NCBI RefSeq assembly: GCF_022846255.1
Contig: NZ_AP025682.1
Direction: 5' to 3' (one strand)
Source of the DNA: Escherichia coli
GTDB taxonomy: Bacteria; Pseudomonadota; Gammaproteobacteria; Enterobacterales; Enterobacteriaceae
DNA: 64,000 nt
Shown here: piece by piece, positions 21,501 to 27,500 of the stretch
How the letters are laid out: every line of letters starts with the position of its first letter
Numbering within the stretch: the stretch's first letter is position 1
Position numbers: made by a program

Positions 21501-24500
21501 GAGGTACAACCATCCCTCCTGTGTGGCAACATACGTCAGGTCCGCCACCCAGACCTAATTTGGTGCTGTAGGAGCGAACGTCTGGTTCAGCAGATTTGGC
21601 GCAACTGGCAGATTGTGGTTCGAGTTCGTAGTCGCTCTGAACTTGCGTTTCTGCTTACAGCGTAGCCTTAGCTCCTTACGAAGACGTGCCAGTCGGTCTC
21701 GACCAACGATGATGCCATTCTCTGCCAGCTCTGTCTGGAGCCGCCGGGTTCCATATGTTTCGCGAGTGCGGATATGTGCCACCTTAATCTCCAGTTTTAG
21801 CCGCTCATCACTTTGTTTTCTGTCTGAGGGTTCATGCTGTACCCAGTTGTAATAACCGCTCCTGGATACACCAAATACCTGACACATCGCTTCAATGGGA
21901 AATTGTTGTCGCCATTGTTCGATTAACGCGTATTTTTCAGCGACTCCTGTGCAAAATACGCTGTTGTAGATTCAATCTGTCAATGCAACACCCCTTTCAA
22001 TTATCTCTTTCGGTGTTTTGAACTTCAGTGTCTTTCTCGGTCTGTTGTTTAGCTGAGCAGCAACCAGATCTAGTTCATGTTGAGTATATTGGGCAAGACA
22101 TGTCTTTTTAGGAAAGTACTGCCGAATTAGCCCATTTGTGTTCTCATTTGTTCCCCGCTGCCAAGGACTCTGAGGATCGCAGAAGTAAACTTTAACGCCG
22201 GTGCTGACAGTAAATTCTAGATGTCTGGCCAGTTCCATTCCTCTGTCCCATGTCAGTGATTTTCTGAGTTCTGACGGTAAACTCAGGAATTTGTCGGTAA
22301 GAGCCTGATTTACTGAGACAGAATCTTTGCCCCTGAGTCTAAGGATGATCGTATAACGTGATTTTCGGTCTACAAGTGTGGCTATATGAGAGTTTTTTGT
22401 ACCTGAGACTAAATCGCCCTCCCAATGCCCCAGAGAGCGTCTGTTATCGATATTTCGGGAACGTTCGTGAATTGGTGTTCCGTTCACTATGTTAATCGTA
22501 CCTCTTTCGCCTTTGCGGGTATGACGCCTGCCATGGCGAAGGCTATGCGACCGTCGCAGATGCTGTATATTCAGGTGGTGTAGCGCTTCACGGCTACGAA
22601 AGTACAGCGTTTTATAAATTGTCTCAGGTGATATTCGCAGCGTTTTTTGACGTGGTTTTGTTCGCCTTAACCATCCTGATATTTGCTCTGGAGACCATTT
22701 CATCTCCAGCTTTTCCAGAACAAGCTTTCGCAATGGTAAATTTTGATCCAGTAAGCACGGTTTTGGCCTTTTCGCCATTCTGTTGGCTCGGTTATTAGCA
22801 TCAACAGCTTTGTAATAGCGTCTGCCCCGATTACGCTGAACTTCACGTGAGATCGTCGAAGGACTGCGATTCAGCGCAGTAGCTATCGCACGAATGCTCA
22901 TTTTGGCTGACAAACCAGCTCGTATCTCCTCGCGCTCAGACAGTGTCAGGTGAGCTACAGCCCGCTTACGCTCATGGGGTTTTATGCCGCCAGTATCCCT
23001 TAACATAGTGAAGATCGTTCCGGGTTTTGAACCCAGGATATTCGCTATTTCACTGAAGCCTGTTCCGTTCTTCCATAGTTCAAAAACAGAGGCTTTTTCC
23101 TCTGCTGTAAATGTTCGTCTCATTCAAAAAACCTCCGCAACCCCATGTTTTCACATAACTGTTGCGTTGATCAATTGAATCTACAGTTGCTTTTTTTAAT
23201 ATATCTCGCTCAAGGCGAGCTTCATTTAACGCCTTACGCAGTTGCAGAATTTCAGATTCCAGTTCAGCCAGCGTGCGGGAACCAGGAGTACCGAGCCCTT
23301 TTCTGGCGGCGGTAACCCATTGTCCTAAAGTGCCTTCAGGAAGAGATAATCGGGAAGCGCCTTCACTGCTCGAAAGTTGATTTTCAAGAACCATTCTGAC
23401 AGCTTCGGCTTTGAACTCTTTAGAGTAACGTTGGGTTTTTCTGCTCATTATTAGCTCCTTCTGATGCCATTCTATTTCAGGAAGGAGTGTCCGTTAAACT
23501 CAGGCTACCTCACAACAGGGGACAGACAACGCACGGGATAAAAGGGACGTTTTCGTCAGAATGTTGTTCTGCCGGCGCTGCATGTTCTCCCCGTATTCTG
23601 GCCAGTGTGATGCCAGTGTAAATTCATGTCAAAAAGTGTCAGCGAGAAAATTTACACCTGAAAAAGTCGGTCGTAAAACTGTTTCATGGCGAAACATCAG
23701 GAAGTATGTCAGAAATGTGATCGCTATTGTGGTTTTACGGAAGAGCATAAGGCAAAAAACGGCGGGAAATTCATTGACATTCACGGAGGATAAACAGCAC
23801 CATTTTATTATCCAGCAAGAAAACCGTAATCCCCCTCTGAATCCGGACAAGGTTCGTACTGGCAACATAACCTGAAATGGCACTAATGGCCAGAGCTTAC
23901 TAATACATAATCCCTACAGGATGTAGCCACCAGTTTTGTTCATCCGGTATTCTGATTTGGTAACATGCTCCAGAAAGGAAGAAATATGTACTGCAATGAA
24001 TTAAAAGAATTTGCGCAAGAGCAGGAACAAAAACTTATCAGTGCGCTTGCTGATACCAGAGAGCACCCGTCCCCCGATGGTGAAACAAGAAGCCGGGATA
24101 ATTATCAACGGGATTACGCGCGTATTCTGTATTCATCATCATTTCGCAGGTTGCAGGGAAAGATGCAACTTTTTGAAATTGATCCTGAAAAATTCAACAG
24201 AAACAGATTAACGCACAGTCTTGAGGTTGCTCAGATCGCCCGAAGTATCGCGTCAGACCTCAAACTGGTTAACCCGGTGGTGGTTGAACTGGCAGCTCTG
24301 GCGCATGACATCGGAAATCCTCCTTTCGGTCATTCCGGTGAAAAACTGCTTAATGAACTGTCTGAAGAAATCGGCGGCTATGAAGGTAATGCACAGGCGC
24401 TACGTATCCTGAGAAAACTGGAGAAGAAATTTTCATACTGCAACGGATTAAATCTGACTCACCGTAGTTTACTTTCGGTTGTTAAGTATCCCGCCCCTCG

Positions 24501-27500
24501 CACTGCAACTACTGCCGGCAAGTTCATTTATGATGATGACTTTGATTTTTATACTAACCTGCTTGCTGAAAATCAGCTCGATCTGAATCCCGGAGAGAAA
24601 ACGATTGATGCACAGATAATGGATCTCGCGGATGAGATTGCCTACGCTGCGCATGACCTGGAAGATGCCCTTAGCAGGAACATGGTCACGATTGAAGATA
24701 TTGAATATGAGTTTCAGATTTCTGACGAATTCCGGGGAGCGAGGGAACAGTTCAGGGAAATCGTTACTCAGTCGAGAAACACCGCTTTTCAGGCTAACTT
24801 ACTGAAAACCTCAGAAGAATTTGCCATCATATTCCGCAAGGAGTTAACTTCAAATATTGTCAATCGCCTCGTTGCTGATATTTCTGTAGTAACGAACCTG
24901 AATGGTTTTCAGGAACTGGGATTCGGGAAACTGAATGCGTTATCCGAAGGGCTCAAAAAACTTCTCTTTAAAGTCATCATGCGAAAACGTAATATCCTCA
25001 CCTATGAGTTCAGGGGAAATAAAATAATCAGGGATTTATATGACTTTTACAATGAAGGAGAGAATTATAAATTTCTGCCTCCTGAACTTAAATTCACCTT
25101 ACCCCAACCAGATTCCTGTATATTTGAAATCAGCAAAAAACGAGCAGTGGTTGACTATATTTCAGGTATGATGGATACATTTGCAGTCAAGGAATGGGAA
25201 ACTCACTGTCTGAAGTAACACTGTCGATTACCAGAGGCGCATATTTTCCCGTTATGGTTATTGCGCCTTTATTCCGTTTCGGTGACAGGTTATTTTAAAT
25301 ATTCTGGAAATGCGTTGATGGGCAAGAACAATTACCCTGAAAATAAATACAGGAAATGGTTTTCCACAGCAATAACATATCTTATTACAGGTGGTTTGTG
25401 CTGGTATATGTTGTGGGCATCCGCTATATCTCATTATACTGTTTTACAAAATACGGTACCTGAATGGACAACATATTTTTGCACCGGTATAATCACCGGA
25501 TCTCTTTCTTTTATTTATGCATTTTATATCCGCACCTTTAACAGAACATTAAAGTATTTATTAAATGCATTCACGGGGGGATTTTGTCTTGGATTTATAC
25601 TGAGTCTGAACTGTTACGATGTCTGTGTTTATCTTTTTCCGGATAAGGTTATTAGCTATGAATCTGAATATGATGTTGTTTTTCCGGGACCATCAAGAGG
25701 AAAGTATGGACATTGTGAAGCGGGACTCTGGTTGAAAGATCAAAACACTTCCAGATGGATACAACTTTGTACAAATAAAGAGTTCCTGCGCAGTCACCAT
25801 AAACAGGGGATGACAGGTGTATGGGTAACAGCTCGTGTTAATAAAATTGGGTCGTATATCGTGAAATATGAATTTATCTATATGTAGGTAAAAGCTGACA
25901 TGTTTACCATGGATGAGTTGCTATATTTTTGCGCATACAGGAGTAATCGATTACTGGCTATACTAAAAATACAGAGAAAAGCTATCCCGGGATAAAGATT
26001 ACCAACTCACAGAGACAAGCCTTGCCTTATAAACAGATAAATATCATCAACACAGATTCAGAAGCTGAAGCAGTAAGCCATGGTAAACTGCCTGCTGCCA
26101 GTACAGATAAAACAATCAGTCTCGCTGACTGGCTCTTATCACTATCGTTATTTCATAACTCTACAGTATAACTCATTTATCTTTATTGCCATATATTAGC
26201 ATGAAGTCAGGCATTTTCATTCCCTGCCGATAATATATCAACTCCGGAGAAGTGTTTACTATATATTCCTTGATATTAATACAGATCAAAATATATATTG
26301 CTGTTATTCATAATCAGGACCAGATGATACTTCCTGAGATATAAGAAAATCATCAAGAGAACCTCCGGCTTTTATAGCCTCTGCTATGGCCTTAGGCCGA
26401 CGTCCTTGTCCATTCCAGTACATTCTTTTACCGTTATCGTCATACTCGTATTTATGCCCTCCTGACACACTTTTTCTGCCTGCCTGTGACTTTTTGCCAA
26501 ATTCACGATAAAAATCTTCCAGAGATATACCATGTTCATCCATGAGTGATTTGATAGCTTTCATATTTTCCTTTCGCTCATTACGTTGCTGAATAGCTAT
26601 GTCAAAGTTTTCCTTAACCTTATTTAAATCTTCATCAGACATTTCTATAACCAGTTTTTTAACAAAGTCAATACTCAGAAGTAATGCCCGGTAAGTAATG
26701 AACTCTTCATTTTCAAAAGGAATTTTCTTCTTACTCATTTATTAACACTCAGCTTTTCATTCATTTATGGCAAATCCTATCAGGTGATTCACCATAAAAA
26801 TAATATGTGTATCACATTTTTCGGTACTTAATCGTCACTTCCTTTCCGAAGGAAAGGCCATCGCAGAAAGTAAGAGAACGTTCTTTGTATTTGATACTTA
26901 GCGAAATTGCGCCGGTCACTACTTGTCTGAGTCCATTCACTTTCGTTAATGTTAATGAGAAAAACCCGCAGTATGATGCGTAATTTCATCAAACTGATGA
27001 AATTCGGTAGCAATCATATATCTGGTGTAGCCTGCATATTCGCAGGAACACGAATATCGATTATACTAATGGACTAACAATCTTCAGCCTCTTCAAGAAG
27101 ATGTTATAAATACACACAGATACTGATTCTCATCCCTTTCAGGCCTGGAACACTATTTCTGCTTTTTAGCATCATCTGGTAGCAATACTTTCCAGGTATG
27201 TCGCCCCATTTTTGTTCGTCTCCATTTTTTTAAGAAGTGCTCAAGTGAAAAACTTTTTACCTCTCCGGGAGTTGTCGTATTTGCTGATATTGTTCGTTTG
27301 TTTAAAGAACCTACTGGTCTTGCCATTAATATTACCTGCTGATTGCTTCACGCCCGGACTCCTCGCACTGTGCGCGGGTTATTGTTTCGTTTTCAGCCCC
27401 GGGGTCGCCAAGGCTCTGGATGGGGTACTACTTCCATTGACAGCATGAGGTAACAATACTGATGGTAACGCTGACCATTAACCGTAAACCACAGGGCATT

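What the first reader, a model, noticed from the sequence alone, without database searches (positions are those of the whole stretch)
23986..25887. HD-domain dGTPase followed by a small three-TM membrane protein in low-GC cargo: candidate nucleotide-depletion defence module with an undescribed partner
The 410-aa protein carries the Dgt-type HD motifs (HSLEVAQIA, AHDIGNPPFGH) and sits in AT-rich cargo between IS remnants, which is how antiphage dGTPases are usually found. Described defensive dGTPases are single-gene systems, yet here a co-directional small integral membrane protein follows about 100 bp downstream, which would make this a distinct two-gene arrangement if the pairing is conserved. 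The housekeeping dgt gene lies elsewhere in enterobacterial chromosomes, so this is an accessory paralog.
Basis: partly seen in the sequence, partly recalled or inferred. Interest (0 to 1): 0.72.

Follow-up and report, generated by a model that had tools for sequence, protein, structure and literature searches.

The report
Lone antiphage-type dGTPase, unrelated membrane neighbour
The window does hold an accessory, defence-type dGTP-degrading enzyme followed by a small three-helix membrane protein, but the two genes are neighbours only in one E. coli island lineage, so this is an ordinary single-gene dGTPase and not a new two-gene defence system.

Summary
Both ORFs are real. The dGTPase lies at 23986-25218 (410 aa) and the membrane protein at 25318-25887 (189 aa), with a 99-bp gap.

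The first gene is a clear HD-domain dGTP triphosphohydrolase. It scores 368 bits against the PADLOC dGTPase model and 321 bits against TIGR01353. It is 55% identical to the solved structure 9vwa and far from housekeeping E. coli Dgt. It occurs in 345 of 5426 complete E. coli genomes. Its orthologues in Klebsiella, Pantoea and Colwellia sit beside Avs3, SIR2, TIR and type IV restriction genes. An accessory antiphage-type dGTPase is therefore supported, though not tested experimentally.

The proposed partnership fails every test:
- None of 88 non-E. coli dGTPase loci (25-82% identity) encodes a membrane-protein homologue.
- None of seven non-E. coli lineages carrying the membrane protein (46-75% identity) has a dGTPase nearby.
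- DNA homology to the Proteus orthologue stops at the dGTPase stop codon.
- GC content drops from 42.7% to 36.5% between the two genes.
- About 130 E. coli genomes keep an intact dGTPase beside a membrane gene cut in half.

The membrane protein belongs to a small orphan family of Enterobacterales and Pseudomonas. It has three TM helices and a probably periplasmic beta domain with two invariant cysteines, and its function is unknown.

Verdict: already known kind, low interest.

The parts
23897..23985 (+). Upstream leader or promoter region that travels with the dGTPase gene
   Evidence: Nucleotide homology to the Proteus mirabilis orthologue locus (79%) starts at 23897, 89 bp before the ATG. 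No promoter was mapped experimentally.
23986..25218 (+). HD-domain dGTP/dNTP triphosphohydrolase, 410 aa (RefSeq WP_000271619/622 family); antiphage-type, single-gene module
   Evidence: PADLOC dGTPase PDLC02374: 368 bits, E 1.8e-110. TIGR01353: 321 bits against a cut-off of 152. PDB 9vwa: 388 bits, 55% identity. Motifs HSLEVAQIA and AHDIGNPPFGH are present. Cross-genus DNA homology ends at 25219-25221, the stop codon.
25233..25270 (+). Hairpin AGAGGCGCA...UGCGCCUUU followed by a U-rich tract in the 99-bp gap; possible terminator of the dGTPase transcript (weak evidence)
   Evidence: The RNA fold of 25210-25325 gives -31.6 kcal/mol with a z-score of -2.0. The simple terminator scan did not call it, because the loop is long. 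No Rfam match.
25318..25887 (+). Orphan 189-aa membrane protein (RefSeq WP_000517678.1, 'hypothetical'): three TM helices and a C-terminal beta domain with invariant C133 and C151. A neighbour of the dGTPase, not a conserved partner.
   Evidence: AlphaFold2 model: pLDDT 88, helices 10-38, 49-70 and 78-106, beta domain 110-187. Family alignment. Hydropathy and charge profile. No Pfam, PADLOC, NCBIfam or PHROG hit. Homology to other genera is confined to the CDS from about 25331. GC 36.5%.

Best explanation
These are two independent genes that lie side by side in one E. coli genomic-island lineage.

Gene 1 (23986-25218) is a stand-alone, horizontally mobile HD-domain dGTP/dNTP triphosphohydrolase of the antiphage 'dGTPase' class. 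By inference from the tested members of that class, it hydrolyses dGTP to deoxyguanosine plus triphosphate. During infection this starves the phage DNA polymerase of dGTP. It needs no partner gene. The unit shared between genera is the gene plus about 90 bp upstream.

Gene 2 (25318-25887) belongs to a small orphan family of enterobacterial and Pseudomonas inner-membrane proteins. The likely topology is N-terminus in the cytoplasm, three TM helices, and a periplasmic, probably disulfide-bonded beta domain. In other genera the gene stands alone in unrelated chromosomal contexts. In E. coli it belongs to the AT-rich island backbone that continues into the H-NS-like gene.

Shown here: the identity of both ORFs, the absence of co-occurrence outside E. 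coli, and the decay of gene 2 while gene 1 stays intact. Inferred: dGTPase activity, the antiphage role, and the membrane topology.
For: Enzyme identity:
- PADLOC dGTPase model, 368 bits; TIGR01353, 321 bits.
- 55% identity to the solved structure 9vwa.

Accessory status:
- Present in 345 of 5426 complete E. coli genomes, always on the chromosome.
- Lies in an island beside tRNA-Phe and an integrase.

Defence neighbourhoods of orthologues:
- Klebsiella variicola: Avs3b (352 bits) plus a NACHT protein.
- Pantoea: a SIR2 protein.
- Colwellia: a TIR effector and a type IV restriction enzyme (720 bits).
- Proteus: next to a prophage integrase.
- E. coli 97-3250: a type I RM system.

Single-gene module:
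- tblastn with the membrane protein finds nothing (E <= 0.1) in 80 species-representative dGTPase loci (25-54% identity).
- It finds nothing (E <= 1e-3) in 8 loci from four genera at 66-82% identity.
- Membrane-protein homologues in Enterobacter, Pantoea (two), Pseudomonas, Hafnia, Pectobacterium and Cronobacter have no dGTPase within 5-6 kb. Their neighbours all differ.
- DNA homology to the Proteus, Klebsiella and Pantoea orthologues ends at the stop codon.
- GC3 is 42.6% in the dGTPase gene and 33.2% in the membrane gene.
- In E. coli the dGTPase gene is at least 80% covered in 319 genomes, but the membrane gene in only 203. In the remaining 131, the sampled copies break at nt 292 of 570 (one at nt 281), followed in the one locus inspected by a papA remnant. 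There the dGTPase product is WP_000271619.1, the same protein as in strain 97-3250, where both genes are intact.
Against: - No member of this particular dGTPase clade has been shown here or in the retrieved literature to protect against phage. The enzymes tested by Tal et al., including E. coli G177, belong to the Sp-dGTPase clade.
- This protein scores 286 bits on NCBIfam's antiphage_dGTPase model, below its 400-bit cut-off.
- Where both genes are present in E. coli they are always adjacent and co-directional. The only possible terminator between them is weak, so co-transcription and a lineage-specific functional link are not excluded.
- The sampled truncations of the membrane gene almost all share one breakpoint. 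They probably reflect one ancestral deletion and not repeated independent losses.
Confidence: 0.75

Rival explanations
1. An E. coli-specific two-gene system. The membrane protein was recruited recently as a regulator, sensor or second effector of the dGTPase and is co-transcribed with it.
For: The genes are adjacent and co-directional with a 99-bp gap. No strong promoter was found in the gap. Roughly 185 E. coli genomes (estimated from the row spread) carry both genes intact. In E. coli the membrane gene is found only at this locus.
Against: There is no co-occurrence in any other genus from either side. The E. coli copies are 98-99.7% identical, so they amount to one inherited block and not independent conservation. 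About 130 genomes keep the dGTPase intact with the membrane gene cut in half. The two genes differ in composition. A possible hairpin terminator lies in the gap.
Confidence: 0.07
2. The dGTPase is not an immune gene. It is an accessory nucleotide-pool or mutation-rate enzyme, or a mobile-element gene serving the element's own replication.
For: It falls below the NCBIfam antiphage_dGTPase cut-off, 286 bits against 400. Tal et al. found that homologues below 45% identity to Sp-dGTPase were seldom near defence genes. It matches a phage protein family, phrog_21998, at 218 bits.
Against: It scores strongly on the PADLOC defence model. Its distribution is patchy and mobile (6% of E. coli; 50-54% identical copies in Colwellia, Sulfurovum and Pseudoduganella). 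It lies next to Avs3, SIR2, TIR, type IV and type I restriction genes in several lineages.
Confidence: 0.13
3. The membrane protein is itself an independent envelope-level protective gene, for example a superinfection-exclusion or toxin-immunity protein. On this reading it sits in the island as separate cargo.
For: A distant homologue (P0207, 34% identity) lies in a P22-like prophage just upstream of the tailspike gene and near the integrase, a typical moron position. One AlphaFold DB relative (34% identity) is labelled as an S-2TM-beta effector. The Pectobacterium copy lies beside toxin-antitoxin genes and a primase at the edge of an integrated element.
Against: There are no homologues in 50,697 phage records and no PHROG, PADLOC or Pfam hit, including S_2TMBeta, in 37 members. 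There is no fold match to solved structures. In Enterobacter, Pantoea, Pseudomonas and Cronobacter the neighbours are ordinary metabolic, transport and regulatory genes, none called as defence.
Confidence: 0.08

Closest known systems
Defensive dGTPases of Tal et al. [quoted passage not shown]
   Same: HD-domain dGTP triphosphohydrolase of about 400 aa. Single-gene module, accessory, found in defence islands, and recognised by the PADLOC dGTPase HMM at 368 bits. The expected mechanism is dGTP depletion during infection (10.1101/2021.04.26.441389).
   Different: It belongs to a different clade. The N-terminus differs from the tested E. coli G177 enzyme. It scores 286 bits on NCBIfam's antiphage_dGTPase model, below the 400-bit cut-off. 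No phage assay exists for this clade in the literature I could retrieve.
PDB 9vwa / 9vwc / 9vwg, 'Deoxyguanosinetriphosphate triphosphohydrolase-like protein' (402 aa)
   Same: The closest solved relative: 388 bits, 55% identity over residues 1-407, same length class.
   Different: Its source organism and associated paper could not be found, so its biological role is unknown to me.
Clover (CloA dNTPase + CloB nucleotidyltransferase), PMC12265719
   Same: A defence system built on a dGTPase; it shows that dNTPases can have a regulatory partner gene.
   Different: The partner there is a Pol-beta-type NTase that makes p3diT. Here the neighbour is a membrane protein with no NTase motif or any Pfam hit. 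CloA structures (9p8s-9p8v) match this protein only weakly, at E 2e-25 to 3e-23.
Housekeeping E. coli Dgt (PDB 4x9e; NCBIfam NF003429)
   Same: Same HD-domain dGTPase superfamily.
   Different: Only residues 39-125 align, at 80 bits. NF003429 scores 157 bits against a cut-off of 405. Dgt is 505 aa, against 410 aa here. This gene is present in only 6% of E. coli genomes.
S-2TM-beta effectors (Cap15 of CBASS, OptE of Panoptes), PMC12657218
   Same: The membrane protein has a similar general architecture: N-terminal TM helices followed by a small beta-rich domain. One AlphaFold DB relative carries this label.
   Different: It has three TM helices, not two. The beta domain is predicted to be periplasmic and has a conserved cysteine pair, whereas the S-2TM-beta barrel is a soluble nucleotide-binding domain. 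No member of the family hits Pfam S_2TMBeta. No fold match appears in the PDB searches. No CD-NTase or mCpol neighbour occurs in any context examined.

Membership tests
dGTP triphosphohydrolase (TIGR01353 / Pfam HD + HD_assoc) | HMM score above the curated cut-off; HD-domain metal-binding motifs (H...HD) | tested here: met
   TIGR01353 scores 321 bits against a cut-off of 152. PF01966 and PF13286 are recorded for the identical protein P0062. HSLEVAQIA and AHDIGNPPFGH are in the translation.
Antiphage dGTPase system (PADLOC 'dGTPase') | Significant match to the PADLOC dGTPase HMM over most of its length; single-gene system | tested here: met
   PDLC02374: E 1.8e-110, 368 bits, profile positions 28-369 of 395.
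Antiphage dGTPase (NCBIfam NF041026, Sp-dGTPase type) | Score at or above the curated cut-off of 400 bits | tested here: not met
   285.9 bits. The protein belongs to a sister clade, not the Sp-dGTPase clade.
Antiphage dGTPase system | Preferential location next to known defence genes | tested here: met
   Known defence genes lie beside the gene or its orthologues: a type I RM system (E. coli 97-3250), Avs3b with a NACHT protein (Klebsiella), SIR2 (Pantoea), and a TIR effector with a type IV restriction enzyme (Colwellia). This is a sample of a few lineages, not a statistical survey.
Antiphage dGTPase system | Protects against phage and depletes dGTP on infection; abolished by an HD-motif mutation | not testable with these tools
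   Needs plaque assays and LC-MS of dNTP pools.
Housekeeping Dgt (NF003429 / PRK04926) | Score at or above 405 bits; about 505 aa; core gene of E. coli | tested here: not met
   157 bits. 410 aa. Present in 345 of 5426 genomes.
Clover (CloA-CloB) | dNTPase encoded next to a Pol-beta-superfamily nucleotidyltransferase | tested here: not met
   The downstream gene has no Pfam, NCBIfam or PADLOC hit and is a 3-TM membrane protein. The upstream neighbour is an IS element.
Proposed new two-gene dGTPase + membrane-protein system | Adjacency of the two families conserved across independent lineages | tested here: not met
   0 of 88 non-E. coli dGTPase loci hold the membrane gene, and 0 of 7 non-E. 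coli membrane-protein lineages hold a dGTPase. The membrane gene is truncated in about 130 E. coli genomes that keep an intact dGTPase.
S-2TM-beta effector (Cap15/OptE) | Two TM helices fused to a nucleotide-binding beta-barrel (Pfam S_2TMBeta), next to a CD-NTase or mCpol | tested here: not met
   No S_2TMBeta hit in 37 family members or in P0207. Three TM helices. No PDB fold match. No synthase neighbour.

The most novel reading that the evidence does not exclude
The most novel reading not excluded concerns the 189-aa protein. Its family is uncharacterised: three TM helices plus a probably periplasmic beta domain with a conserved cysteine pair, 86 protein clusters, no Pfam family. In the E. 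coli island lineage it might have been co-opted as an envelope-level partner of the dGTPase, for example sensing phage DNA entry or adding superinfection exclusion. That would make a lineage-specific two-layer module.
Probability: 0.05. Interest if true: 0.5.

Novelty: already known. Interest (0 to 1): 0.12.

Why it matters
It matters little beyond correct annotation. The locus is a standard hit for existing defence-finding tools: a single-gene dGTPase in a tRNA-Phe island full of other defence and competition genes. Two things are useful. First, gene adjacency in one species is not evidence for a system. The pairing disappears once other genera are examined, and about 40% of E. coli carriers have lost half of the supposed partner. 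Second, this dGTPase clade is distinct from the experimentally tested Sp-dGTPase clade. It is widespread in Enterobacterales and often sits beside Avs, SIR2 and TIR genes. It would be a reasonable but incremental candidate for a phage assay.

Tried and rejected
1. S-2TM-beta (Cap15/OptE) identity for the membrane protein. The lead was one AlphaFold DB label. I rejected it for four reasons:
- No Pfam hit in 37 members or in P0207.
- No PADLOC hit.
- The profile search of PDB sequences found nothing.

2. Phage origin or superinfection exclusion. One distant homologue sits in a P22-like prophage. However, tblastn of both proteins against 50,697 phage records found nothing, and there is no PHROG match.

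3. A non-homologous small membrane gene downstream of the closest dGTPase relatives. The downstream genes all differ: a TIR protein, an AraC-like regulator, convergent transporters, a barstar-like gene.

4. A structured RNA or riboswitch in the locus. There is no Rfam match.

5. Literature on PDB 9vwa and on the RefSeq accessions. Nothing was found.

6. Identity with the tested E. coli G177 dGTPase. The sequence is different.
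Full report
**Observation.** The + strand holds an ORF at 23965-25218. The ATG at 23986 gives a 410-aa protein containing HSLEVAQIA and AHDIGNPPFGH. A second co-directional ORF follows; its ATG at 25318 gives 189 aa ending at 25887. RefSeq annotates exactly these two CDSs in many E. coli genomes. They are named 'deoxyguanosinetriphosphate triphosphohydrolase family protein' (WP_000271619/620/622) and 'hypothetical protein' (WP_000517678.1). 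The gap is 99 bp. IS elements (an IS3-family element split by IS30, 21069-23448) lie only upstream. The downstream neighbour is an H-NS-like gene at 26304-26738 on the - strand.

**The dGTPase.**
- It scores 368 bits (E 1.8e-110) on the PADLOC dGTPase model and 321 bits on TIGR01353, whose cut-off is 152.
- It scores 286 bits on NCBIfam's antiphage_dGTPase model, below the 400-bit cut-off, and 157 bits on the E. coli Dgt-type model, whose cut-off is 405.
- The closest solved structure is 9vwa: 388 bits, 55% identity over the whole length.
- E. coli Dgt (4x9e) aligns only over residues 39-125.
- The E. coli G177 enzyme tested by Tal et al. has a different sequence and belongs to the Sp-dGTPase clade.
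- The protein is therefore a genuine dGTPase-family enzyme, an accessory paralogue and not Dgt. It belongs to a sister clade of the experimentally validated defensive enzymes.

**Distribution and context of the dGTPase.**
- The gene is present in 345 of 5426 complete E. coli genomes, always on the chromosome.
- In the window it lies in an island that begins at tRNA-Phe (3386-3461) and a P4-type integrase (3596-4924).
- That island also carries fimbrial genes, a cdiB remnant, IS elements and an OLD/AriA-like ATPase-nuclease.
- Outside E. coli, 66-84% identical orthologues occur in Proteus, Edwardsiella, Klebsiella, Pantoea, Morganella, Xenorhabdus, Providencia and Cronobacter. Copies 50-54% identical occur in Colwellia, Sulfurovum and Pseudoduganella. 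This patchy spread is typical of mobile genes.
- Neighbours of these orthologues include Avs3b with a NACHT protein (Klebsiella), a SIR2 protein (Pantoea), a TIR effector and a type IV restriction enzyme (Colwellia), a prophage integrase (Proteus), and a type I RM system (E. coli 97-3250).
- This supports a defence role by association. It does not prove one.

**The membrane protein.**
- It has no hit in Pfam, PADLOC, NCBIfam or PHROGs.
- Searches of 5.8 billion proteins return only 86 clusters. All named hits are Enterobacterales or Pseudomonas, and all are unannotated.
- The family alignment has 18 invariant positions, including C133 and C151.
- The AlphaFold2 model (pLDDT 88, pTM 0.76) has three long helices (10-38, 49-70, 78-106) and a C-terminal beta domain (110-187).
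- The family-averaged hydropathy profile has three peaks. Basic residues concentrate in the N-terminus and in loop 2, which places the beta domain in the periplasm. This topology is an inference.
- Foldseek against AFDB50 finds only relatives of the same family, most of them unnamed. One relative at 34% identity is labelled an S-2TM-beta effector.

**Is the pair a system? From the membrane-protein side.** Homologues at 46-75% identity were examined in seven lineages: Enterobacter roggenkampii, two Pantoea lineages, Pseudomonas, Hafnia, Pectobacterium and Cronobacter. Each stands alone, with different neighbours every time:
- a molybdoenzyme chaperone and a sulfate transporter;
- an adhesin and a LysE-family protein;
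- a chemoreceptor and an epimerase;
- an acetyltransferase;
- T6SS genes and NrdD;
- a PIN/Phd toxin-antitoxin pair;
- a rhodanese and an AraC-type regulator.

None has an HD-domain gene within 5-6 kb.

**From the dGTPase side.**
- tblastn with the membrane protein finds nothing at E <= 0.1 in 80 species-representative loci.
- It finds nothing at E <= 1e-3 in 8 further loci of close orthologues.
- Only the four E. coli loci hold both genes.
- The downstream genes of the seven closest representative loci are all different, and none is a small three-TM protein.
- Nucleotide homology between the window and the Proteus, Klebsiella and Pantoea orthologue loci ends at 25219-25221, the stop codon. 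For Proteus it starts 89 bp upstream of the ATG.
- Homology of the membrane gene to other genera is confined to its own CDS.
- GC content falls from 42.7% (GC3 42.6%) in the dGTPase gene to 36.5% (GC3 33.2%) in the membrane gene. The lower value matches the downstream H-NS-like gene at 36.6%.

**Within E. coli.**
- The dGTPase gene is at least 80% covered in 319 genomes, the membrane gene in only 203.
- The other 131 genomes with a membrane-gene match retain only part of it. In the sampled rows the match ends at nt 292 of 570, and in one row at nt 281.
- In the one locus inspected, a papA remnant follows the break and the dGTPase product is intact (WP_000271619.1).
- A smaller group has the reverse state: a 5'-truncated dGTPase gene with an intact membrane gene.
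- The shared breakpoint suggests one ancestral deletion. This is therefore supporting evidence, not decisive evidence.
- The gap holds a 9-bp GC-rich hairpin followed by a U-rich tract (25233-25270). It could terminate transcription, but its z-score is only -2.0.

**Mechanism.** The best-supported reading is a single-gene nucleotide-depletion module. An HD-domain enzyme hydrolyses dGTP to deoxyguanosine and triphosphate, which starves the replicating phage. This was shown for Sp-dGTPase (10.1101/2021.04.26.441389). For this protein the catalytic class is supported by sequence, while the activity and the phage phenotype are inferred. The membrane gene is most simply unrelated island cargo of unknown function.

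**Comparison with known systems.** The locus would be called 'dGTPase' by PADLOC. It is not Clover, because there is no nucleotidyltransferase partner (PMC12265719). It is not housekeeping Dgt.

**Verdict.** The accessory defence-type dGTPase is supported. The finding is an already known kind of system and of low interest.

Noticed in passing
window 3386-3461 and 3596-4924: A tRNA-Phe gene is followed by a P4-type integrase. This marks the left end of the genomic island that carries the dGTPase.
   Followed up: partly
window 32883-34781 (-) and 35258-35989 (-): A 632-aa OLD-family ATPase-nuclease matches PADLOC AriA (76 bits) and several GajA and Old models. RefSeq calls it 'ATP-dependent nuclease'. 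An unannotated 243-aa ORF lies on the same strand about 480 bp away, on the 5' side of the nuclease gene. Together they may be a separate defence system in the same island.
   Followed up: no
window 19849-20997 (-) and 21069-23448: A cdiB/ShlB-family gene is split into two ORFs. It is followed by an IS3-family element that is itself interrupted by an intact IS30 transposase gene (21972-23123). In strain mip270_05 an intact cdiBA-cdiI locus abuts the dGTPase directly.
   Followed up: partly
L099 2868-6607 (E. coli H9Ecoli) and L100 9091-12827 (WS4437A-1): In some E. coli genomes a cluster lies just upstream of the same dGTPase: a MazG-like protein, an XRE regulator, a 314-aa hypothetical protein and a thymidylate synthase. 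This nucleotide-metabolism grouping might be another defence module.
   Followed up: no
L108 4001-6681 (Pantoea sp. Mb-10): The 75%-identical dGTPase orthologue is followed 144 bp downstream, on the same strand, by a 435-aa SIR2_2 protein. That protein matches PADLOC PDC-S25 at 97 bits and is ThsA-like. This is a different possible dGTPase pairing; its conservation was not tested.
   Followed up: partly
L106 1718-3540 (Cronobacter dublinensis): The 66%-identical dGTPase orthologue lies downstream of a PfkB / nucleoside 2-deoxyribosyltransferase fusion and a QueC-like gene (PADLOC QueC, 70 bits).
   Followed up: no
L109 1650-3622: A 34%-identical relative of the membrane protein sits in a P22-like prophage. 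It lies immediately upstream of a tailspike gene (Head_binding domain) and near the integrase, a typical moron position. No homologue exists in 50,697 deposited phage genomes.
   Followed up: yes
window 26304-26738 (-): An H-NS-family gene lies in the 36% GC stretch downstream of the membrane gene. ProQ/FinO-like and YagK/YfjJ-type genes follow it. Together they form the conserved backbone of this island in E. coli.
   Followed up: partly
window 25233-25270: A GC-rich hairpin with a U-rich tail lies in the gap between the dGTPase and membrane genes. It may be an intrinsic terminator. The simple scan missed it because the loop is long.
   Followed up: partly
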